A DNA stretch of 64,000 nucleotides from an uncultured Myxococcales bacterium (GTDB taxonomy: Bacteria > Myxococcota_A > UBA9042): positions 8,253 through 72,252 of the forward strand of contig CAIXGW010000063.1 of the NCBI GenBank assembly GCA_903919145.1, in the 5' to 3' direction. Position 1 is the first letter of the stretch. The number at the start of each line of letters is the position of its first letter. The position numbers were made by a program, and so were the translations under genes. Under the pieces are notes generated by a model. The model saw only the letters and a list, made by a program, of their open reading frames with translations. It searched no databases and was not told the origin of the DNA. Shown piece by piece: positions 9,122 through 54,185 of the stretch.

Positions 9122-10090
9122 TCAGACAGTCGCAAAGTCCTGAAACAGCACGCTGGACAGGTAGCGCTCGCCAGCGTCCGGCAGCACCGTGACAATGCGC
9201 TTGCCCTTGTTCTCTGGACGCGCCGCGACCACCAGCGCCGCCGCCATGGCCGCACCGCAGCTGATGCCCACGGTGATGCCTTCTTCGCGGTGCAGGCGCC
9301 GCGCGGTCGCCACGGCGGAGTCATTGCTGACCGTCACCACTTCGTCAACCAGGTCCAGGTCCAAGACATCCGGCTTGAACCCGGCGCCGATCCCCTGGAT
9401 CTTGTGCGGCCCCGGCTTGGGCACCTGACCGGCCTTGATGGCCGTCAGCACCGGCGAATCGGCAGGCTCTACCGCGATGATCTGGACCTTCTTTCCCTTG
9501 CTGTTGAGGTAGCGCGCCACCCCGGTGATGGTGCCGCCGGTGCCCACGCCAGCTACAAAAATGTCGATCTCGCCATCGGTGTCGTTCCAGATCTCCGGGC
9601 CGGTGGTGCGAAAGTGGATGTCGGGGTTGGCCGGATTCTTGAACTGCTGCGGCAGGAAGTAGCGGCTGGGGTCCGAGGCGACAATCTCCTCGGCCTTGGC
9701 AATGGCCCCGGGCATGCCGCGCGGACCTTCGGTCAGCACCAGCTCCGCGCCAAACGCCAGCAGCATGCGCCGCCGCTCGATCGACATGGTCTCTGGCATG
9801 GTCAGGATCAGCGGGTAGCCGCGCGCCGCAGCCACATACGCCAGCGCAATGCCGGTGTTGCCGCTGGTCGGCTCGACGATGGTGACATCCCGCGAGCCGG
9901 GCTTGAGGAGGCCGTCGCGCTCGGCGGCCCAGATCATCGCCGCGCCAATCCGGCACTTGACCGAGTAGGCCGGGTTGCGCCCCTCAATCTTGGCCACAAT
10001 TTCCGCGCCCAAGCCTGCCGAAATGCGATTCAACCGCACCAGGGGGGTGTTGCCGATGCTCAAGCTGTTGTCATCAAAAATTCGCGCCAT
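9122..10090 (-). CDS. cysK: Cysteine synthase A (O-acetylserine sulfhydrylase)
   Basis: 322 aa. The PLP-lysine region SVKCRIG, TSGNTG, GTGGT and the overall sequence match CysK closely. Confidence 0.9.
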
Positions 10091-10220: not shown

Positions 10221-10360
10221 CAGTGCCTCAAACCCCAAGTTTGTTCCGGGTTCCGGAACGGACCCGGTTTGGGGTACGGAAGAAGACCCAGCAGTAGGAC
10301 CCAAAACCTGTGAACAAGAACCGGGGGCAACCCAGATCGAATGAGCGGTCTTGGGTACTA
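10221..10360 (+). mobile_element. MITE-like 140 bp dispersed element, copy 1, including flanking TA
   Basis: About 88% identical to the reverse complement of 32343-32482. The right terminus is GGGTAC-TA. The left terminus is degenerate (caGTGCCTC versus taGTACCCC). It contains the internal palindromes GTTCCGG/CCGGAAC and CCAAACCCC/GGGGTTTGG. The TA at 10359-10360 is part of the rrf2 stop codon. Confidence 0.7.
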
Positions 10361-10786
10361 GATCGAAAAATCCACCTTTCCAGCCCCAGAGTCTGCCCTG
10401 AGCGCCACGTCTTCCAGCGTGGTGCGCTCCAAAATCGCCCGGATCGCCTGCGCCCACTCGCCACTCATGGCCCGCGCAGCGGCCATCCCATCGTCGCCCG
10501 TGGCCACCGGCTCTTCGCCGATCTGCAAAGGCCCGTCGGCGGCTTCCACCACCTCCAGCACCCGAATCGCCGCCAACGGCCGCGCCAGCAGGTGCCCGCC
10601 ATCCGGCCCGCGGCGGCTGTCGATCAGGCCGGCCAGGCGCAGATCCGCCAGCAGCGACTCCAGGACCTTGTGCGGCACAGCCAGGGCGGCGGCCACGTCC
10701 TGCAGCCGCACGCGGCCCCCAGGCGCTTGCCGACCGAGCAGCACCAAAGCGGCCAAAGCCTGTTCTGTTCGGTGAGAGATGCGCAC
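10358..10786 (-). CDS. Rrf2-family transcriptional regulator (IscR/CymR-like)
   Basis: 142 aa. MRISHRTEQALAALVLLG.. is a typical Rrf2 N-terminal HTH. It lies immediately upstream of cysK on the same strand. The stop TAG is shared with the MITE terminus. Confidence 0.8.
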   Translation of the reverse strand: MRISHRTEQALAALVLLGRQAPGGRVRLQDVAAALAVPHKVLESLLADLRLAGLIDSRRGPDGGHLLARPLAAIRVLEVVEAADGPLQIGEEPVATGDDGMAAARAMSGEWAQAIRAILERTTLEDVALRADSGAGKVDFSI

Positions 10787-25597: not shown

Positions 25598-27037
25598 CTA
25601 GGCCTTCTTCTTGGCGGACTTCTTCTTGGCGGCGGGCTCGGCCAGCACCAGCGGCTCCGCTTGGGTCGGCGGCACTGGCTCTGAAACCGGGTCTGAAACC
25701 GGCTCTGACGCTGGCACCGAAGCTGGCCCTGGCTCTGCCGCAACCACCGCTGGCACGCCGCCCAGCCGCTGCTCGCGCTTGGCCTTGACCGCAGCCATGC
25801 GATCGACCTCGGTCTTGCGCCAGAACTGGACCAGACCAAAGAAGTGATCGGTAAACTGCTCGACCTCGTGGGCGGGAAACAGGGCCGCGACCTTGGCCCG
25901 CACGATCTCCTTGGCCTTGGGGGTGCCAAAAAAGTTCCAGACGACTTCGTCCAGATGCGGCAGGTGGCGATCGCAGAACTCGACAAACCGGTCCGTCTCA
26001 AACCGCTGGTGGGCGATCTTGGCGTATTCGCGCAGCCGGTCGTCAAAGCTCAGATCCTTCTTGGCCACCGCGTAATACGGCGCCCAGTCCAGGTTGGGCT
26101 TGAATTCGCGCTTGGTGGCGGCGCAGAACAGCGACCACTTGATCATGTTCTTGACCATGATCGGGAAGTGGTAGTGCAGAGACGTGACCTGAAAGTCCGG
26201 GCAGGCGTTGGCAAAATCGATGGGGTAGAAGGTGCCGTTCTGGCGCAGCGACTCGCAGGAATTGAACTCCCACTGAAAGAAGCTGTTGATGGTCAAGCAC
26301 ATGTCGCTCAGCTGCTGGTACTCGGCGCCATCGACAAAGTTGAAGCCCACCTCGTACCGGCTGTGCAGCGGCGCGTCGGGGTTGTACTTGACGATGTGCG
26401 TCTGCGGTCCAATGCCAATGGCCCGCACAAACAGGTCAAAGGGCGCCACGGCCTTTTGCACGTGCATGAGGCGCTGGCCCGACTTCTCATAGGCGGCGCG
26501 CAGTTCTTGATCGTTGTTGATCTTGGTCACGCCAACCCAGGCGCCGCCGTCATAGGGCTTCATGAACACCGGGTAGCCCAGGTTCTGGCCGACCTTGGTC
26601 AGATCAAACAGCCGGGCGTAGCGGGTCAGCGTGGTCTTGGCGTCGCCCAGGTCGGGGCTGTACTCCTTGGGCGGCACCATCCACGTCTCTGGCACCGGCA
26701 GGCCCAGGTGCATCATGGCCGCGTAGGAAGTGTGCTTCTCCATGGACTGCAAAGACCACGGATTATTGAGCACATACAAGCCGTCCATGATCACGGCCTT
26801 CTTGATCCACTCGCGGGTGGTCTGGTACCAGTGGGTCAGGCGGTCGACCACCACGTCGTACTTGACCGGTTGCTTGAGGTTGAAGGGCTCAATGGACACC
26901 CGGTCGATGTCAAAGCTCACCGTGTCGCCGTCGATAGGCAAAGACAGCTTGAGTTGCTTGATGATTTCTTCATAGGCCGCAGGCCAGCACAAGTCAGCAC
27001 CTAGCGACAAACCGATTTTCCGCGTGACGTTGGCCAT
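25598..27037 (-). CDS. Second ATP-grasp-like ligase, with a Lys-rich C-terminal tail
   Basis: 479 aa. GYPVFMKPYDGGAWVGVTKINNDQEL is a B-loop-like segment. GAGAGGA 5 nt upstream of the ATG. GC is slightly lower than in the surrounding genes. Confidence 0.6.
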   Translation of the reverse strand: MANVTRKIGLSLGADLCWPAAYEEIIKQLKLSLPIDGDTVSFDIDRVSIEPFNLKQPVKYDVVVDRLTHWYQTTREWIKKAVIMDGLYVLNNPWSLQSMEKHTSYAAMMHLGLPVPETWMVPPKEYSPDLGDAKTTLTRYARLFDLTKVGQNLGYPVFMKPYDGGAWVGVTKINNDQELRAAYEKSGQRLMHVQKAVAPFDLFVRAIGIGPQTHIVKYNPDAPLHSRYEVGFNFVDGAEYQQLSDMCLTINSFFQWEFNSCESLRQNGTFYPIDFANACPDFQVTSLHYHFPIMVKNMIKWSLFCAATKREFKPNLDWAPYYAVAKKDLSFDDRLREYAKIAHQRFETDRFVEFCDRHLPHLDEVVWNFFGTPKAKEIVRAKVAALFPAHEVEQFTDHFFGLVQFWRKTEVDRMAAVKAKREQRLGGVPAVVAAEPGPASVPASEPVSDPVSEPVPPTQAEPLVLAEPAAKKKSAKKKA

Positions 27038-27054
27038 GGGCGTCCTCTCATGAT

Positions 27055-27140
27055 GGGTTTAAGCGGGCAAAGTGGGTTCAAGCGGGCAAAGTGGGTTCAG
27101 GCGGGCAAAGTGGGTCTAAGCGGGCAAAGAAGGAGCAGGC
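27055..27140. repeat. Tandem 21 bp direct repeat (about 4 units) immediately 5' of the ATP-grasp gene start/RBS
   Basis: Minus-strand reading: cttagacccactttgcccgc / ctgaacccactttgcccgc / ttgaacccactttgcccgc / ttaaacccatcatGAGAGGacgcccATG. Each unit carries a TTGAAC-like hexamer. Confidence 0.75.
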
Positions 27141-27317
27141 GGGCAGGGGCCCGCAGAGGGCAAGCAGGCGGTGCAAGCCAGAGTCACAAGTCCCAAAGGA
27201 TCCGGCAGTTGCAGGGCAATGGCTCCAAGCGATCCAAAGGGCGGCTGCGGGCGTGCATCGTAAGGGATTTGCCAGAATCTGGCTACCGCACGCCGACCCG
27301 TCCCAGCGAGCGGAAAC

Positions 27318-31934: not shown

Positions 31935-32345
31935 ATGGGCGGCGTCAATCCTTATGTTCGCACCAGCTCTGTGCCGCTGCCGACCCGGCCCTACCGGATC
32001 ACCGTGGCCGGCACAGGTCAGGTCATTGAAGTCCATCCAGAAGAGCTGCCGCTTGGCCGCGATGGCCGGCCAGGATCGCTGCTGGATGTCTTGCTGCACC
32101 ACGGCGTCAAGGTCGACCACGCGTGCGGCGGTGTGGTCAGCTGCTCTACGTGCCATGTGATCGTTCGCAAGGGTCTTTCTAGCTGCAATCCCGCCGAAGA
32201 GGCCGAAGAGGACATGCTCGATACGGCGCCCGGTCTGACCCCGCAGTCGCGCCTGTCTTGCCAGGCCGTGCCAAACGGCTCGCAGGACGTGGTGGTCGAG
32301 ATCCCGGCGTGGAACCGCAACCAGATCAAAGAGTCTGATTTCTAG
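31935..32345 (+). CDS. fdx: [2Fe-2S] ferredoxin, ISC/adrenodoxin type
   Basis: 136 aa. DHACGGVVSCSTCHVIV, EDMLDTAPGL..SRLSCQA and VVEIP align with E. coli Fdx. The stop TAG at 32343-32345 lies in the MITE terminus. Confidence 0.8.
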   Translation: MGGVNPYVRTSSVPLPTRPYRITVAGTGQVIEVHPEELPLGRDGRPGSLLDVLLHHGVKVDHACGGVVSCSTCHVIVRKGLSSCNPAEEAEEDMLDTAPGLTPQSRLSCQAVPNGSQDVVVEIPAWNRNQIKESDF

Positions 32346-32482
32346 TACCCAAGGCCGTTAATTCGATCCGGGTTGCACCCGGTTCTTGTTCACGGGCCTT
32401 GGCTACTACTACTGGGTCTTTTTCCGTACCCCAAACCACCTCCGTTCCGGAACCCGGAACAAACTTGGGGTTTGGGGTACTA
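32343..32482 (-). mobile_element. MITE-like 140 bp element, copy 2 (best preserved), TA-GTACCC...GGGTAC-TA
   Basis: Perfect terminal inverted repeat TCTAGTACCC/GGGTACTAGA. It is the reverse complement of copy 1 at about 88% identity. TA dinucleotides flank both ends. It sits between the fdx stop and the cyaY RBS. Confidence 0.75.
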
Positions 32483-32506
32483 GAGTGTTGTCGCCAGGAG
32501 CCCCCG

Positions 32507-32836
32507 ATGGACGAGCTGATGTTCCGCCAATACACCGACCGCCTCTACCGCGCGGTGCTGCAGCGCCTGGACCGCGAAGATCCCGATGTCATTGAAGGGG
32601 AGCTGTCGGCCGGGGTCGTCAAGATCCGCAATGCCGCCGGCCAGATCTATGTGCTGAACCACCAGGTGCCGGTCAGCGAGATCTGGTATGCCGCGGGCGA
32701 CCGCGCCTGGCACTTCCAGCACCAGACCGATGGGCACTGGCTGGACCCGCGCAACGGCGAAGAGCTGGCCGCCGTCCTGGGCCAGACCCTGAGCCGACTC
32801 GCCGGCATTCCGCTGGAGTTTGACATCCCGCAGTAG
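32507..32836 (+). CDS. cyaY: Frataxin homolog CyaY (iron-sulfur cluster assembly)
   Basis: ATG at 32507, 8 nt after AGGAG. MDELMFRQYTDRLYRAVLQRLD..IYVLNHQVPVSEIWYAAGDRAWHF..GHWLDPRNGEEL matches the CyaY/frataxin fold sequence. Confidence 0.8.
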   Translation: MDELMFRQYTDRLYRAVLQRLDREDPDVIEGELSAGVVKIRNAAGQIYVLNHQVPVSEIWYAAGDRAWHFQHQTDGHWLDPRNGEELAAVLGQTLSRLAGIPLEFDIPQ

Positions 32837-35810: not shown

Positions 35811-35925
35811 GAATTGCAGCGCACAAGGGCGCCGCTGTGGAACTCGCTGGTTGCCGGCGGTGCGCATATTTCGCTATGCTGCACGCAGTGGACCCTGCCT
35901 TGGGTCAGTTTGGGTGGTCGCGCTG

Positions 35926-38900
35926 ATGGGGTTCCCGCTCGGCTTTGAGGCACTGCGCCGCTATGACGCTCTGGCCGGTCGGGCTGTGCATGGCGTCGTC
36001 GTGGCTTGCCGCGGGCGATCGCCGGTCAGCGCACTGGCGCGGCTGGCGAGGGTGGCGGCAGCGGCGATGGCTGTGCTAGTGCTTGGCGGCTGCCTGGAGA
36101 CCGAGTTTGGTCCGGCCCTGACCGACAGCGCCAGTCCCGCCGACGACCAGGGCAGCAGCTCTGGCGATGCACCCACCGACAGCACCCGAATTGACAGCCA
36201 ACCCGCAGACACCGCCCAAGACAGCTCTGGCACTGCCGACGCGGGCCAGACGAAGTGCCCTGGCAGCCCGGGCTGCCCCTGCGCCATCACCCAGGACTGC
36301 GGCGCAGGAGCCTGCCTGGTGACCGCCAATGGCAAGCGCTGCGCCGCCTTCTGCATAGAGGGCAGCTGCGACGTGGGGTCGACCTGTGGCGCCGTGGCGG
36401 TCGAAATTCCGGGCGCGCCCACGGCAACCAAGTTCGGCGTGTGCCTGCCGCGCTGGCCCACTGACTGCGTGCCGTGCCTTGGCAACTCCGACTGCGCCAA
36501 CCCGGCCGACGCCGCGGCCGCCTGCGTCGATCCTGCCGGCGGCGACGGCGCCAACGGCTGGTTTTGCGCCTCCTCTTGCAAGCAGGACGCCGACTGCGCG
36601 CCAGGGCGCACCTGCAAAACCCTCAAGGGCCTGGACGGCAGCATGCACCAGACCTGTGCGCCAACCTCAGGCCAGTGCGCCTGCTCTCCGCTGGCCGTGC
36701 AGACGGCTGCCGCCACTTCCTGCCGCAAAACAGCTGCGGGCATGGGCGTTTGCAAGGGCCTGCGCAGCTGCTCCAGCGGTGCGCTCAGCGCCTGCTCAGC
36801 CCAGACTCCCCTCCCCGAAGCCTGCAACGGCCTGGACGACGACTGCGACAGCGCCGTAGACGAGCCGATCGACGCCACGCCGCTGTGCGCCGACCAGGAG
36901 CCGTGCACGGCAGAAAGTTGCCAGGGATCCAAGGGCTGCGCCTACCTGCCCGTCAGCGTAACCTGCAGCGATGACGACCCCTGCACCAGCGGAGACAAGT
37001 GCGGCAACGGCAAATGCGCTGGCGGTCCAGCCAACTGCGACGACAACAACCCCTGCACTACTGATTCTTGCGCCAGCGAAACCGGCTGCACTTATGTGGC
37101 CACTGCCGGCCCCTGCCACGACGGCGACAAGTGCACCAAGGGCGACGTGTGTGCTGCCGGCGAGTGCGCGTCAGGCCCCGCACTGAGCTGCGACGACGCC
37201 AACCCCTGTACCAACGACTGGTGCGACGCGCTACAGGGCTGCACCTCCCTGCCCAATGACGTCACCTGCACCGACGGCAACGAGTGCACCGGTGTGGACA
37301 CCTGCAAGTCGGGCAAGTGCAGCGGCCCACTGCTGGCCTGCGACGACGGCTGGGGCTGCACTTCAGACAGCTGTGACCCGCTTGCCGGCTGCGTTTTTGC
37401 CTCTGGCCAGCCCAGCTGCGGCCAGGCTCCCATGCCTTATGCCATCGCCATGGACTGCACCGAGACCGCGTTCAGCAGCTGGCGGGTGTCGGCCCCGGGC
37501 ATCGCTGTTGCCGATCCGCAGCCGCCGCTGGTCGCCTGGAAGCTCGACAATCTGCCTCCCTTGGGCGGCACCAGCCAGTGCGCCCTCAATGTCAACAACG
37601 GCAAGGATCTGGCGTGCGGCTTCTTGCAGACGTCGGTCGATGCGTGGGCAGAATCTCCATGGATTGGCCTGACTTCTGTGACCCCAGAGGCTCCGGTGGT
37701 GCTGCGCATGGAGAGTGCCGGCTTCTGGTCCAGCAGCTGGACCGCCAAGATCCTGGTCAGGCAAGAGAACCAGCCGTGGAAAGAGCTGGGCAAGCCCTCG
37801 GCCTCTGGCGCCATCTGGGGCAAGGTCACCGTCGATGTGCCAGAGCTGGCCGGCAAGATGGCGCAGATCCGCTTTCAGTTTTCTGGCAGCGACTGTGCCG
37901 ACAGCGACGGCACCGGCTGGTACGTCCGCAAGGTCTCTTTGGCGGTCGAGCCCTGCGCCAAGAACAACGGCGGCTGCGCACCCACCGCCACTTGCAGCGC
38001 CGGGCCCAACAACAGCGCGGTGTGCGCCTGCAATGCGGGCTACAGCGGCACGGGCAAGATCTGCAGCGACATCAACGAATGCGCCAAGAACAACGGCGGC
38101 TGCGCGGTCGGCGCCACCTGCACCAACAGCATCGGCAGCTTCTCTTGCGGCTGCAAGCCGGGCTTTCAGGGCGATGGCGTCACCTGCACCGACATCAATG
38201 AATGCGCCACCGGTAAGGCCAATTGCGCCGTAGACGCGCTCTGCACCAACACCTCTGGCAGTTTTGTCTGCTCGTGCAAGCCCGGCTACACCGGCAACGG
38301 CAAAATCTGCACCGACATCAATGAATGTGCCTCTGCCAACGGTGGGTGCGCGGTCCAGGCTACCTGCACCAACCTTCCGGGGTCGATGCAGTGCGCCTGC
38401 AAGGCGGGCTACACCGGCACTGGCAAGACCTGCACAGACGTCAACGAGTGCACCACCGTGGGCCTGGCCGACTGCGCCACCGAGGCGACCTGTACCAACA
38501 GCACCGGCTCGTTCAGCTGCGCCTGCAAGCCAGGCTACTTGGGCAACGGCAAGTCGTGCGTGCTCTACGGCAGCGCCGAGCTACCCGCTTCGACCTGCAA
38601 GTCGATCCAGTTGGCCAATCCCGCTACAATCTCTGGCCCTTACTGGCTCAACCTTGCCGGTTCGACGGTCCAGGTCAACTGCGACATGGTCACCGACGGC
38701 GGCGGCTGGACCCTGGTCGGCTACAAGACCGACCTGACCCTCAAGGTCAACAACACCAAGTGCTGCAGTGAGAGTTGGCTAATCAGCGACTTTGCGACGT
38801 ACTTGACGGCCGTTCAGATCAAAGCCCTGCAGTCCCTTTCTACAGAGGGCAGACAGACCTACGTGGGGCAGTGCGTCAAGTTTGCCCACTACGAATACAA

Positions 38901-39153
38901 CAGCGGCAATTTCAACCGCGCTATCGGCTTTCGCTTCGCCGATGGTTCCGTAAGCGTCAACGGCCTCAAGAGCTACCTGCCTTTGGACATCAGCGTGCCG
39001 GTTGACGAGTGCAAGGCCTTGTCTTCGCTGCCCGCCACCACCCAGTTTGTCATCCATTCCGTCAAGGTACCGGTAGTCAACATCCTGACCGACTTCCAGG
39101 GCAACGGCCAGTTCGGTTCTCAGTTGACCAAGCAGCCGGCCATGCTGCGGTAG
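35926..39153 (+). CDS. Large secreted lipoprotein: myxobacterial Cys-rich repeats, five tandem calcium-binding EGF-like domains, and a fibrinogen-C-like motif
   Basis: Lipobox VLVLGGC. Repeated CDDxNPCTxDxC modules. The cbEGF domains recur five times: CSDINECAKNNGGCA..C.C..GY.G.G..C. A later ..SGPYWLNLAGSTVQVNCDMVTDGGGWTLVGYKT matches the fibrinogen-related-domain core CDMDTDGGGWTV. The start is uncertain (35926 ATG or a downstream GTG). GC falls to about 57% over 38.0-39.15 kb. Confidence 0.65.
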   Translation: MGFPLGFEALRRYDALAGRAVHGVVVACRGRSPVSALARLARVAAAAMAVLVLGGCLETEFGPALTDSASPADDQGSSSGDAPTDSTRIDSQPADTAQDSSGTADAGQTKCPGSPGCPCAITQDCGAGACLVTANGKRCAAFCIEGSCDVGSTCGAVAVEIPGAPTATKFGVCLPRWPTDCVPCLGNSDCANPADAAAACVDPAGGDGANGWFCASSCKQDADCAPGRTCKTLKGLDGSMHQTCAPTSGQCACSPLAVQTAAATSCRKTAAGMGVCKGLRSCSSGALSACSAQTPLPEACNGLDDDCDSAVDEPIDATPLCADQEPCTAESCQGSKGCAYLPVSVTCSDDDPCTSGDKCGNGKCAGGPANCDDNNPCTTDSCASETGCTYVATAGPCHDGDKCTKGDVCAAGECASGPALSCDDANPCTNDWCDALQGCTSLPNDVTCTDGNECTGVDTCKSGKCSGPLLACDDGWGCTSDSCDPLAGCVFASGQPSCGQAPMPYAIAMDCTETAFSSWRVSAPGIAVADPQPPLVAWKLDNLPPLGGTSQCALNVNNGKDLACGFLQTSVDAWAESPWIGLTSVTPEAPVVLRMESAGFWSSSWTAKILVRQENQPWKELGKPSASGAIWGKVTVDVPELAGKMAQIRFQFSGSDCADSDGTGWYVRKVSLAVEPCAKNNGGCAPTATCSAGPNNSAVCACNAGYSGTGKICSDINECAKNNGGCAVGATCTNSIGSFSCGCKPGFQGDGVTCTDINECATGKANCAVDALCTNTSGSFVCSCKPGYTGNGKICTDINECASANGGCAVQATCTNLPGSMQCACKAGYTGTGKTCTDVNECTTVGLADCATEATCTNSTGSFSCACKPGYLGNGKSCVLYGSAELPASTCKSIQLANPATISGPYWLNLAGSTVQVNCDMVTDGGGWTLVGYKTDLTLKVNNTKCCSESWLISDFATYLTAVQIKALQSLSTEGRQTYVGQCVKFAHYEYNSGNFNRAIGFRFADGSVSVNGLKSYLPLDISVPVDECKALSSLPATTQFVIHSVKVPVVNILTDFQGNGQFGSQLTKQPAMLR

Positions 39154-42710: not shown

Positions 42711-42799
42711 GGGGACCTAGGGGCCTCGACAAAGACCGGTCGATCTGCTGTCGGGGTGGCGACGCGTTTCCGCGGCAATGAGCTTGGCGAACCGGCTGG

Positions 42800-42935
42800 C
42801 ACCCAAACCCGCAGTCCGGTGTGGAAGCCGCAGCCGACTTGGTTAGGGGGTGTGGGAGAAGACCCAGCAGCAGCCAAGACCAGCGAAGAACAGCCAGGTG
42901 CCATCCGGATCAAACTGGCGGTCTTGGAGACTGGC
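42800..42935 (+). mobile_element. Degenerate third copy of the MITE-like element
   Basis: cacccaaacccgcagtccggtgtggaagcc..gggagaagacccagcagcagccaagacc..ggtcttggagactgg aligns along its whole length with copy 1, at roughly 65-70% identity. It lies between the CHAP gene stop and the thpR start. Confidence 0.5.
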
Positions 42936-42973: not shown

Positions 42974-43924
42974 CTAGGCCACTTCTCCAAAGCCGAAGAT
43001 GGTCTCCATGCCGCGGACTTTTTGGTAGACGCCTTCTTGGCCGCGGTCGCGTGGATTGGCGGTGTTGCCTTCGATGGTGGTGATCGACCCGTCGGCATTG
43101 ACGGCTTTGACGATGCCCACGTGGTCGGGGTTCTTGTCGTGGTCCCAGTCAAAAAAGACCAGGTCGCCGGGCTGCGGGTCGTTCTTGCCCTTCCAGCGTC
43201 CCTGCTTCTTGAGCTGCTGGACAAAGGTGGGGCAGTACGGGCTGTTGGTCGACTTGCCAGCCTTGCTATAGACCCAGGACACAAAGTCGGCACACCAGGG
43301 CTCTGGGCCGCGGCCAAAAAACTGCTGGTACTTAAGGGCGCCACCGCGGTTCTCGCCCTTTTCTGTGGTGCCGATTTGCGACTCAGCGACGCGCAGAATC
43401 TCTTGGCGAAGCTGAGCCTCGTCGCGCGGATTGGCCGGCGGTCGCCGCCCAGGGCGCTGCCCCGGCTCAGGCTGGGGGCGCTGGCTGCCGCCGCGCTGCT
43501 GGTCGCCACCGGGGCTGCGCTGCGGCGTGCCATATTGGGCGGTGTCCAGCTCCATGCCGCTGCGTTCGCGCAGGCCTGCCCAGGTTTGCGGACCCACAAT
43601 GCCATCGACTTCAAGGCCGCGCTTCTCTTGGAATTGAACCACTGCGCGGTGGGTGGCGGGGCCAAAAATGCCGTCTGCCGGGCCGGGAGCCAGCCCGACT
43701 TTGTTGAGCAGCGTCTGGCACATCCGCACCTCGGCCCCCGAGGAGCCGCGGCGAATCATCTTGGGCATGTGCGCCATGCCGGGGGCGACGACGCCCTGCT
43801 GGCCCTGCTGGCCCTGCGTACCTTGCCGGCCCTGGGCGCCTTGCTGGCCCTGCGCGCCCTGCGATCCCTGCTGGGGATTGCGCTGCTGACTTTGCTGGGG
43901 ACCTCTGTGGGCTGGCATCGACAA
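42974..43924 (-). CDS. Peptidoglycan-binding (PG_binding_1) plus CHAP-domain cell-wall hydrolase with an N-terminal GQQ triplet tract
   Basis: GIFGPATHRAVVQFQEKRGLEVDGIVGPQTWAGL is a PG-binding domain. The C-terminal CADFVSWVY..HVGIV is the CHAP Cys/His pair. The start is uncertain: the internal Met MAHMPKMIRRG is possible. Confidence 0.6.
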   Translation of the reverse strand: MSMPAHRGPQQSQQRNPQQGSQGAQGQQGAQGRQGTQGQQGQQGVVAPGMAHMPKMIRRGSSGAEVRMCQTLLNKVGLAPGPADGIFGPATHRAVVQFQEKRGLEVDGIVGPQTWAGLRERSGMELDTAQYGTPQRSPGGDQQRGGSQRPQPEPGQRPGRRPPANPRDEAQLRQEILRVAESQIGTTEKGENRGGALKYQQFFGRGPEPWCADFVSWVYSKAGKSTNSPYCPTFVQQLKKQGRWKGKNDPQPGDLVFFDWDHDKNPDHVGIVKAVNADGSITTIEGNTANPRDRGQEGVYQKVRGMETIFGFGEVA

Positions 43925-52292: not shown

Positions 52293-52396
52293 TGCGCCTG
52301 CCTAGCCGAGCCCTTGCTGGCTGTGCGAATGGACTGCGCGCAGTGGTGCCACAGAACGGCAATTGTGACGATCCCCGCGCCGGCGGTCAATGCGGT

Positions 52397-52699
52397 GCCG
52401 CGCCATCGGACATTGCCCTGGGGACTGTCCGACGGCCCGCCGTGTCGCATCGGACACTGCCCTGGGGAGTGTCCGACGGCCGCCGTGTCGCATCGGACAT
52501 TGCCCTGGGGACTGTCCGACGGCCCGCCGTGTCGCATCGGACATTGCCCTGGGGAGTGTCCGACGGCCCGCCGTGTCGCATCGGACATTGCCCTGGGGAG
52601 TGTCCGACGGCCTGCCGTGTCGCATCGGACATTGCCCTGGGGAGTGTCCGACGGCCCGCCGTGTCGCATCGGACACTGCCCTGGGGAGTGTCCGAGGGC
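52397..52699. repeat. Tandem array of seven copies of a 44 bp palindromic unit GTGTCGCATCGGACAYTGCCCTGGGGASTGTCCGACGGCCCGCC
   Basis: The hairpin cores begin at 52404, 52448, 52491, 52535, 52579, 52623 and 52667. The period is 44 bp (one unit is 43 bp). Each unit contains the inverted repeat CGGACA..TGTCCG around CCCTGGGG. Units differ only by 1-2 SNPs. There are no unique spacers. Confidence 0.9.
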
Positions 52700-53889: not shown

Positions 53890-54185
53890 ACCGCCGGACA
53901 CCCCCAGGGGAATGTCTGATGCTTGTAGCCGTTGACGAATTTCGGACGGCCAGCAGGCGGCCCGCACCGAGAAGCCCCGTCGGACATTCCCTAGGGGAAT
54001 GTCTGATACTTGTAGCCGCTGATGAATTTTGGACGGCCAGCGTTCCGTCCCCGCCGGGCGACACCGCCGGACACTCCCTAGGGGAATGTCTGATCCTTGT
54101 AGCCTTTGACGAATTTCGGACGGCCAGCAGACGGCCCGCACCGAGAAGCCCCGTCGGACACTCCCTAGGGGAATGTCTGATCGGG
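53890..54185. repeat. Tandem array of about 3.5 copies of an 87 bp unit, each carrying the palindrome CGGACAYTCCCTAGGGGAATGTCTG
   Basis: CGGACA recurs at 53895, 53981, 54068 and 54155. The units alternate between two spacer variants, giving an A-B-A pattern. The core is related to the 44 bp unit at 52397-52699, sharing CGGACA..TGTC and a cggacggcc segment. Confidence 0.85.

What the first reader, a model, noticed from the sequence alone, without database searches (positions are those of the whole stretch)
32343..32482. MITE copies sit exactly on stop codons: fdx and rrf2 both terminate with the TAG formed by the TA flank plus element G
fdx ends ..ESDF-TAG with the TAG at 32343-32345 = TA + G(TACCC). 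On the other strand rrf2 ends ..DFSI-TAG with the TAG at 10358-10360 = TA + G(TACCC) of copy 1. An element that inserts at TA and begins with G regenerates a TAG stop when it lands in the TA of a TAA or TAG stop. Such insertions are therefore neutral for the upstream gene. This predicts enrichment of this family at stop codons. It would also be a tidy way to tag operon junctions. For copy 2 it places the element 25 nt before the cyaY RBS.
Basis: inference. Interest (0 to 1): 0.62.

Follow-up and report, generated by a model that had tools for sequence, protein, structure and literature searches.

The report
CTAG-targeting MITE landing on TAG stops
A small 136-bp mobile DNA repeat in an uncultured freshwater myxobacterium sits on two gene stop codons because it inserts into the sequence CTAG, which in this organism is often a stop codon; this is an ordinary side effect of where it inserts, not a special device.

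Summary
Two 136-bp copies (87-88% identical) abut the TAG stops of fdx (32343-32345) and rrf2 (10358-10360, minus strand).

The element behaves as a MITE:
- Its ends are inverted repeats (GTACCC...GGGTAC) and it folds into two hairpins.
- It is flanked by TA inside a C-TA-G context.
- I recovered six independent copies.
- Four assemblies break inside it, which indicates many copies.
- An ortholog 90% identical in protein lacks exactly 138 bp at one filled site.

Relatives without the element already end fdx and rrf2 in C-TAG, with unchanged C-termini. The element therefore landed in existing TAG stops.

Only 2 of the 6 copies are on stops. The others lie 27 nt and about 42 nt after a stop, in frame inside a gene's 5' end, and in junk sequence. 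TAG supplies about half of all stops in this lineage. In the window, 9 of the 26 CTAG sites outside coding sequence are stop codons (35%), so 2 of 6 is what chance predicts.

CTAG targeting with TA duplication is known for IS630. CTAG duplication is known for the IS5-derived MITEPsy1. TAG-supplying repeat termini are known for GTAG REPs.

Verdict: a new MITE family of a known kind. The stop-codon overlap is a by-product of target choice. The transposase family is unresolved.

The parts
32343..32344 (+). Left TA of the duplicated target. It is also the first two bases of the fdx stop codon TAG (32343-32345), and is preceded by C (32342).
32345..32480 (+). MITE copy 2, 136 bp, running from GTACCCAAGGCC to GGTTTGGGGTAC.
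32345..32406 (+). Hairpin A (GTACCCAAGGCCG...CGGGCCTTGGCTAC). It contains an inner stem-loop CCGGGTTGCACCCGG followed by TTCTTGTT.
32426..32480 (+). Hairpin B (GTACCCCAAACC...GGTTTGGGGTAC).
32481..32482 (+). Right TA of the duplicated target, followed by G (32483). This junction forms a second CTAG.
31971..32345 (+). 2Fe-2S ferredoxin gene (fdx). The start codon is uncertain; the stop is TAG at 32343-32345.
32507..32836 (+). cyaY (frataxin-like). AGGAG lies at 32496-32500. The ATG is 24 nt after the right TA.
10223..10358 (-). MITE copy 1, 136 bp, in the same orientation as rrf2 and cysK. Its far end is degenerate (GGTTTGAGGCAC).
10359..10360 (-). Left TA of the target for copy 1. With G at 10358 it forms the rrf2 stop TAG. 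The right-hand copy is degenerate (TG, plus-strand 10221-10222).
10358..10786 (-). Rrf2-family regulator gene, 142 aa, ending ...KVDFSI-TAG.
9122..10090 (-). cysK-like PLP enzyme gene, downstream of copy 1.
42799..42931 (-). Third, decayed copy (about 70% identity). It has CCAG at both junctions and lies about 42 nt after the C-TAG stop of a CHAP/PG-binding gene (42974-43924, minus strand). It is co-oriented with the flanking genes.

Best explanation
The feature is a non-autonomous DNA transposon (MITE) of 136 bp. It consists of two tandem hairpins, each bounded by GTAC, so the composite has imperfect terminal inverted repeats (GTACCCAAGGCC and GTACCCCAAACC). It belongs to an uncultured freshwater Myxococcota lineage.

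A transposase supplied in trans, not present in the window, inserts it into the tetranucleotide CTAG. Either the central TA is duplicated (IS630-like) or the whole CTAG is duplicated (IS5-like). Because the element ends in G...C, both junctions read CTAG again.

In this lineage TAG is about half of all stop codons, and many stops are preceded by C. C-TAG stops are therefore about a third of the CTAG sites where an insertion does not break a gene. Insertions there leave the stop and the protein untouched, so they persist.

The stop-codon overlap is a by-product of target specificity plus purifying selection, not an adaptation.

Shown: repeat family, ends, hairpins, flanks, empty sites, ancestral TAG stops, site census. 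Inferred: the transposition mechanism, the transposase family, and the neutrality of the insertions.
For: - Six independent copies were recovered: window 32345-32480, 10223-10358 and 42799-42931; L004; L005-L008; L052/L053.
- The four intact copies measured are each exactly 136 bp; the L052 copy reads as 136 bp by eye.
- The flanks are C-TA...TA-G in 5 of 6 copies, counting single-base decay. P is about 1e-3 to 3e-4 if only TA were required.
- One filled site has a precise empty site. Orthologs P0068, P0069 and P0070 (86-90% aa) are 258 aa, which is the filled protein minus 46 residues. L048 reads GAG-CTT-GTG where L005 reads GAG-CTA-[element]-TG-GTG.
- Orthologs without the element end in C-TAG with the same C-termini: fdx in L013, L014 and L018; rrf2 in L046.
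- 12 of 15 Myxococcota-type fdx loci use TAG.
- Contigs L009-L012, from four assemblies, start inside the element, as expected for a multicopy repeat.
- Site census: 39 CTAG sites in coding sequence, 17 intergenic, 9 on stops; stop codons are 22 TAG, 21 TGA and 0 TAA.
- 2 of 6 copies on stops compares with 35% expected.
- Precedents: IS630 prefers the TA in CTAG (Tenzen & Ohtsubo 1991, cited in PMC2170065). MITEPsy1 duplicates CTAG (PMC3189936).
Against: - No cognate transposase or full-length IS with matching ends was found. There is none among about 45 window proteins.
- The whole genome could not be scanned, so only six copies are known.
- Three of the six were found through called ORFs, which biases the sample.
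- TA duplication, CTAG duplication and target-adjacent insertion without duplication give the same junctions and cannot be separated.
- The right-hand TA reads TG in two copies, and one copy has C-TA...TA-C.
- Five of six copies point the same way as the flanking genes. A palindromic target does not predict this (one-sided P = 0.11).
Confidence: 0.78

Rival explanations
1. The element has been retained, or co-opted, as an orientation-specific RNA-level module at operon junctions. Two stable hairpins placed just after a stop codon would attenuate, terminate, process or stabilise the polycistronic mRNA. This would uncouple fdx from cyaY and rrf2 from cysK.
For: - Five of six copies are co-oriented with the flanking genes.
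- The transcript would fold strongly (-55 kcal/mol, z = -4.8 for copy 2).
- One stem pair shows a compensatory change (AU in 3 copies, GC in 2).
- The stretch CCGGTTCTTGTTCAC is invariant in the four intact copies compared and forms a weak terminator-like site.
- In the nearest relatives fdx and cyaY are coupled (TAGATG), whereas here they are 161 nt apart.
Against: - The orientation bias is not significant (P = 0.11) and one copy is reversed.
- The terminator-like hit is no more than shuffled sequence gives (0.6-0.8 expected).
- The fold of copy 1 is unremarkable (z = -1.6).
- One copy sits inside a coding sequence and another in junk.
- The decayed copy shows no maintenance.
- No Rfam family matches.
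- Hairpins come automatically with palindromic MITEs.
Confidence: 0.1
2. The element is moved not by a DDE transposase but by a single-strand HUH/Y1 enzyme, making it an IS200/IS605-derived PATE or a REP/REPIN-like unit. It would insert 3' of CTAG without duplicating the target, and the two hairpins would be the enzyme's recognition structures.
For: - The architecture is two terminal hairpins rather than one long stem.
- The apparent duplication could be the target CTAG plus an element-borne CTAG/CTGG cleavage site. L005 fits this without any mutation.
- REP termini are known to supply TAG stops (PMC3733652).
Against: - There is no GTAG or CGTC head.
- The hairpins are 55-62 nt, not 20-40 nt.
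- The outermost bases form inverted repeats.
- Copies lie in both orientations within one 64-kb stretch, so there is no strict replication-strand bias.
- For copy 1, a model without duplication would leave rrf2 with no stop before the insertion.
- No Y1 transposase is in the window.
Confidence: 0.1
3. The two stop-codon overlaps are coincidence for an element that needs only TA, with no CTAG preference.
For: With TA alone, 22 of the 113 TA sites outside coding sequence are stops, so P(at least 2 of 6) is about 0.3. One copy has C-TA...TA-C flanks.
Against: C before and G after the TA in 5 of 6 copies is very unlikely under TA-only targeting (about 1e-3 or less). The L048 empty site shows that the C and G belong to the host.
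Confidence: 0.04

Closest known systems
IS630 / Tc1-mariner insertion sequences and their MITEs (for example RUP of Streptococcus pneumoniae)
   Same: They duplicate TA. IS630 itself prefers the TA inside 5'-CTAG-3' (Tenzen & Ohtsubo 1991, cited in PMC2170065). RUP is a MITE of about 107 bp with TA targets, mobilised in trans (PMC2229807).
   Different: No sequence similarity was shown and no IS630-type transposase or matching ends were found. The two-hairpin build is unlike RUP's single stem. Whether the duplication is TA or CTAG cannot be told.
MITEPsy1 (IS5-family derived, Pseudomonas syringae)
   Same: It is a 100-nt MITE that inserts at CTAG or YTAA and duplicates those 4 nt (PMC3189936). 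It would give junctions identical to those seen here.
   Different: Its ends (GGAAGGTCTGAAAAAGCC) are unrelated to GTACCCAAGGCC. The phylum is different, and no IS5-type parent is known here.
GTAG-tagged REP repeats
   Same: [quoted passage not shown] This is the same overlap of a repeat end with a stop codon.
   Different: REPs are 20-40 nt palindromes with a GTAG head, have no target duplication, and are linked to RAYT enzymes. This element has GTAC ends, is 136 bp, and has TA/CTAG on both sides.
RPE, ERIC, YPAL and the 107-bp Correia elements (MITEs fused in frame into genes)
   Same: [quoted passage not shown] The L005 copy adds 46 codons in frame.
   Different: There is no sequence relation. 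Only one in-frame case is known here, and it is at the extreme N-terminus. Three open frames out of six is only mildly unusual (about 6-7% of shuffles).
CIR repeats of Caulobacter and Brucella
   Same: The 5' and 3' halves each fold into their own stem-loop (PMC2229807).
   Different: CIRs lack TIRs, have stops in all frames and carry a GANTC motif. None of this applies here.

Membership tests
MITE (non-autonomous DNA transposon) | Small size with no transposase gene | tested here: met
   136 bp. The four intact copies measured are the same length.
MITE (non-autonomous DNA transposon) | Terminal inverted repeats | tested here: met
   GTACCCAAGGCC at one end versus the reverse complement GTACCCCAAACC at the other. 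The first 6 nt are identical, and about 10 of 13 match with one gap.
MITE (non-autonomous DNA transposon) | Target-site duplication | tested here: met
   TA (or CTAG) is present on both sides of copy 2, L004 and L052. Copy 1 and L005 have TA/TG, and the decayed copy has CA/CA. The length of the duplication is ambiguous.
MITE (non-autonomous DNA transposon) | Several dispersed copies in one genome | tested here: met
   Six loci, plus contig breaks inside the element in four assemblies.
MITE (non-autonomous DNA transposon) | Empty sites in relatives | tested here: met
   L048 and L050 versus L005 (an exact 138 bp). L046 for rrf2. L013, L014 and L018 for fdx.
MITE (non-autonomous DNA transposon) | A parent insertion sequence with matching ends | not testable with these tools
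   No transposase is in the window. The genome is absent from the scannable collections. No plasmid match was found.
IS630/Tc1-mariner-derived MITE | 2-bp TA duplication | tested here: inconclusive
   The junctions fit, but they fit a 4-bp CTAG duplication equally well.
IS630/Tc1-mariner-derived MITE | Ends related to an IS630-family element | not testable with these tools
   No candidate IS sequence was available.
IS5-group-derived MITE (MITEPsy1-like) | 4-bp CTAG/YTAR duplication | tested here: inconclusive
   The junctions fit. L052 would need CTAG on one side and CTAC on the other.
IS5-group-derived MITE (MITEPsy1-like) | Ends resembling GGAAGGT... | tested here: not met
   The ends here are (G)TACCCAAGG. 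The MITEPsy1 ends given in PMC3189936 differ.
REP / REPIN (RAYT-associated) | 20-40 nt palindrome with a GTAG or CGTC head and no target duplication | tested here: not met
   The hairpins are 55-62 nt with GTAC at both feet, and TA/CTAG is present on both sides (definition from PMC3733652).
IS200/IS605-derived PATE | Subterminal hairpins, no TIR, no duplication, insertion next to a fixed short target | tested here: inconclusive
   Two hairpins and a fixed CTAG fit. The terminal inverted repeats, both orientations within 64 kb, and the rrf2 stop requirement argue against.
Any Rfam RNA family | Match at the gathering score | tested here: not met
   No hits in the whole window.

The most novel reading that the evidence does not exclude
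The element is shaped to be harmless almost anywhere it can land. Its G...C ends rebuild CTAG at both junctions, so C-TAG stops survive. Element plus duplication is 138 bp (46 codons), with frames open in three of six readings, so insertions into coding sequence can stay in frame. In a lineage where TAG is the majority stop codon, this has let it colonise gene junctions in a preferred orientation. There its hairpins may now act as RNA processing or attenuation signals.
Probability: 0.1. Interest if true: 0.55.

Novelty: new member of a known kind. Interest (0 to 1): 0.27.

Why it matters
- It gives a clean worked example of how target-site specificity plus codon usage can make a mobile element look attracted to stop codons. 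This is a useful caution for genome scans.
- It adds a MITE family for a poorly known freshwater Myxococcota lineage. The family was not found in 185,579 reference genomes or in the JGI metagenomes by k-mer scans.
- The side observation that TAG supplies about half of the stops in this lineage may be of more general interest than the element itself.

Tried and rejected
- **K-mer scans.** Exact scans of genome contigs (one 22-mer) and metagenome contigs (the same 22-mer and an invariant 23-mer) found nothing. The first 22-mer later proved variable among copies.
- **Other libraries.** The plasmid collection gave no match. Rfam gave no match. A literature search for the end sequences found only unrelated primers. 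A search for the sample names found nothing useful.
- **Missing DNA.** P0001 (element at the N-terminus of a called protein on a 107-kb contig) and P0003 had no retrievable DNA.
- **Gene finders.** The first GC3-based gene finder picked some antisense frames. I replaced it with a codon-usage model and checked that with Pfam.
- **Terminator function.** Rejected as a claim: the terminator-like hit is at the shuffle level.
- **Strict orientation rule.** Rejected after the sixth copy turned out to be reversed.
- **REP membership.** Rejected: the element has no GTAG head, the wrong size, and duplicated flanks.

Full report
**1. Observation**

- On the plus strand, fdx ends ...AAA GAG TCT GAT TTC TAG, with TAG at 32343-32345. 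This is followed by TACCCAAGGCC...GGTTTGGGGTAC (to 32480), then TA (32481-32482), then G.
- On the minus strand, rrf2 ends ...GAT TTT TCG ATC TAG, with TAG at 10358-10360, followed by the same element.
- The two copies form the longest inverted repeat in the window (141 nt, 88%) and align at 87-88% identity.
- Gene identities hold: Fer2 domain, Rrf2, frataxin/CyaY, and a PALP enzyme of CysK type.

Two details need correcting.
- The element ends 13 nt before the cyaY AGGAG and 24 nt before its ATG.
- The distal end of copy 1 is degenerate (GAGGCAC-TG).

**2. What the element is**

Each intact copy is exactly 136 bp (measured for four copies; read by eye for L052). It consists of two hairpins in tandem.
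- Hairpin A: 32345-32406, GTACCCAAGGCCG...CGGGCCTTGGCTAC.
- A 19-nt linker containing TCTTTTTCC.
- Hairpin B: 32426-32480, GTACCCCAAACC...GGTTTGGGGTAC.

Both hairpins start with GTACCC and end with GG(G)TAC, so the composite has imperfect terminal inverted repeats.

A profile search found a third, decayed copy in the window. It lies at 42799-42931 on the minus strand, has about 70% identity, and has CCAG at both junctions. It sits about 42 nt after the C-TAG stop of a CHAP/PG-binding gene.

The source genome is not in the scannable DNA collections. I therefore searched the protein collection with the element's translated frames. This gave further copies from the same set of ENA metagenomes.
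- L004: 27 nt after the TGA stop of an rmuC gene, with flanks gagC-TA...TA-Gggc.
- L005-L008: see section 3.
- L052/L053, reached through a cluster member: inside the non-homologous 3' part of a called CHAT ORF. Its flanks are C-TA...TA-C and it is oriented against the neighbouring genes.

Contigs L009-L012, from four assemblies, begin inside hairpin B just upstream of cyaY. This is the usual signature of a multicopy repeat that breaks assemblies.

No Rfam family matches. None of about 45 window proteins is a transposase.

**3. Proof of insertion**

In L005 the element lies after codon 4 of a dch-like enoyl-CoA hydratase gene, downstream of its AAGGAG and GTG start. It is in frame: 136 + 2 = 138 bp = 46 codons.

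The three closest orthologs (86-90% aa identity) are 258 aa, which is exactly the filled protein minus 46 residues. They start MAELVFAEK....

At the DNA level, L048 reads GTG GCG GAG CTT GTG TTT. L005 reads GTG GCA GAG CTA [136 bp] TG GTG TTC.
- This is a precise filled-versus-empty pair.
- The C and G next to the TA therefore belong to the host, not to the element.

**4.

*fdx.* Thirty-three related loci were fetched from reference genomes. The nearest carry titles of uncultured Myxococcota/Myxococcales MAGs, mostly from lakes, with up to 82% aa identity. None carries the element.
- Among the 15 Myxococcota-type loci, 12 end fdx in TAG.
- The two closest read ...KETD gaC-TAG-ATG, with cyaY starting immediately after the stop.
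- L018 reads ...KETDF ttC-TAG.

*rrf2.* All seven close homologs end KVDFSI.
- The 87% ortholog reads atC-TAG and has a 64-nt spacer to cysK without the element.
- The 70% ortholog reads atC-TGA.

The ancestral stops were therefore TAG in a C-TAG context, and the C-termini were not altered.

**5. Why stops**

Five of the six copies have C before the left TA and G after the right TA, allowing single-base decay. If only TA were required, this has a probability of about 1e-3 to 3e-4. The target is CTAG.

I built a codon-usage gene map, checked against Pfam, and masked the elements to mimic the state before insertion.

| Site type | In coding sequence | Intergenic | On stop codons |
|---|---|---|---|
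| CTAG (65 sites) | 39 | 17 | 9 |
| TA | 641 | 91 | 22 |

- Stop codons in the window are 22 TAG, 21 TGA and 0 TAA.
- Related Myxococcota loci give 33 TAG, 28 TGA and 4 TAA.
- Stops therefore make up 35% of the CTAG sites where an insertion does not hit coding sequence.
- Observed: 2 of 3 window copies, and 2 of 6 copies overall.
- P(at least 2 of 3) = 0.28. P(at least 2 of 6) is about 0.68. P(at least 2 of 5) = 0.56 (before the sixth copy was found).

The overlap is far above a uniform-position null. It is exactly what CTAG targeting plus loss of gene-breaking insertions predicts.

Caveat: the three copies from outside the window were found through called ORFs, which biases the sample.

**6. 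Mechanism**

Best-supported model: a transposase acting in trans inserts the element at CTAG. Because the ends are G...C, both junctions read CTAG again. At a C-TAG stop, the left junction keeps the stop intact.

The sequences do not distinguish three possibilities.
- A TA duplication. IS630 prefers the TA in CTAG (Tenzen & Ohtsubo 1991, cited in PMC2170065).
- A CTAG duplication. MITEPsy1, derived from an IS5-family element, does this (PMC3189936).
- Insertion next to CTAG without duplication (IS200/IS605-like).

The third option fits less well. The ends are inverted repeats, and copies lie in both orientations within 64 kb. It would also leave rrf2 without a stop before the insertion.

The TG in place of the right TA in L005 is a CTA-to-CTG synonymous change inside a translated frame. 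In copy 1 it is one of three changes in a decayed end.

**7. Possible function**

Points that could suggest a function:
- Five of six copies point the same way as the flanking genes (one-sided P = 0.11).
- Copy 2 folds strongly (z = -4.8), whereas copy 1 does not stand out (z = -1.6).
- One stem pair covaries.
- An inner stem followed by TTCTTGTT is conserved, but it scores no better than shuffled sequence.
- Three of the six reading frames are open, which occurs in about 6-7% of shuffles.

These are leads, not evidence. I find no support for a role as an operon-junction tag.

**8. Comparison and novelty**

Every ingredient is already known.
- TA-flanked MITEs of 100-200 bp with long stem-loops and in-frame fusions (PMC2229807).
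- CTAG targeting (IS630, MITEPsy1).
- Repeat termini that supply TAG stops (GTAG REPs; PMC3733652).

The sequence family itself appears to be new and restricted to one lineage. It was absent from the loci of close relatives and from the large collections as far as k-mer scans can tell.

I classify it as a new member of a known kind, of modest interest.

The unusually high use of TAG stops in this clade is the more unexpected observation. TAG is normally the least-used stop codon in bacteria; that statement rests on my own knowledge, not on a tool result. The TAG counts here come from a crude gene finder and need confirmation.

Noticed in passing
whole window; loci L013-L027, L048, L050: TAG supplies about half of all stop codons and TAA almost none. 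The window has 22 TAG, 21 TGA and 0 TAA. Related Myxococcota loci have 33 TAG, 28 TGA and 4 TAA. This is unusual for bacteria. The counts come from an in-house codon-usage gene finder.
   Followed up: partly
L005 2017-2156 (identical in L006-L008): One copy of the element is a 138-bp in-frame insertion after codon 4 of a dch-like enoyl-CoA hydratase gene. It is kept in four samples. Orthologs without it are exactly 46 residues shorter. A GTG directly after the element could serve as a new start codon.
   Followed up: yes
window 52393-52699 and 53902-54181: A tandem array of about seven 44-nt palindromic units (ATCGGACAYTGCCCTGGGGAGTGTCCGACGG). A related inverted array with an 87-nt period and CCCTAGGGG cores lies on the other side of a short-chain dehydrogenase gene. 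This is a different repeat family from the MITE.
   Followed up: no
window 27054-27148: Five tandem 19-nt units (TGGGTTCAAGCGGGCAAAG) lie just upstream of the gene at 25598-26992 on the minus strand.
   Followed up: no
window 42799-42931: The decayed third copy has CCAG at both junctions where intact copies have CTAG. Two other copies have CTGG at the right junction. This hints that the extra CTAG sites are lost by mutation.
   Followed up: no
window 35914-39153: A 1079-aa protein full of eukaryote-like EGF_CA, cEGF and EGF_3 domains plus Dictyostelium-type repeats. Its repeats account for several direct-repeat families in the window.
   Followed up: no
L052 3601-5004: The called 467-aa CHAT-domain ORF loses homology after about residue 330 and then runs through a reversed copy of the element. 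It is probably a truncated gene whose call was extended through junk.
   Followed up: partly
L013, L014 around 3369: In the nearest relatives the fdx stop and the cyaY start are adjacent (TAGATG). In the window they are 161 nt apart, or 23 nt if the element is removed.
   Followed up: partly
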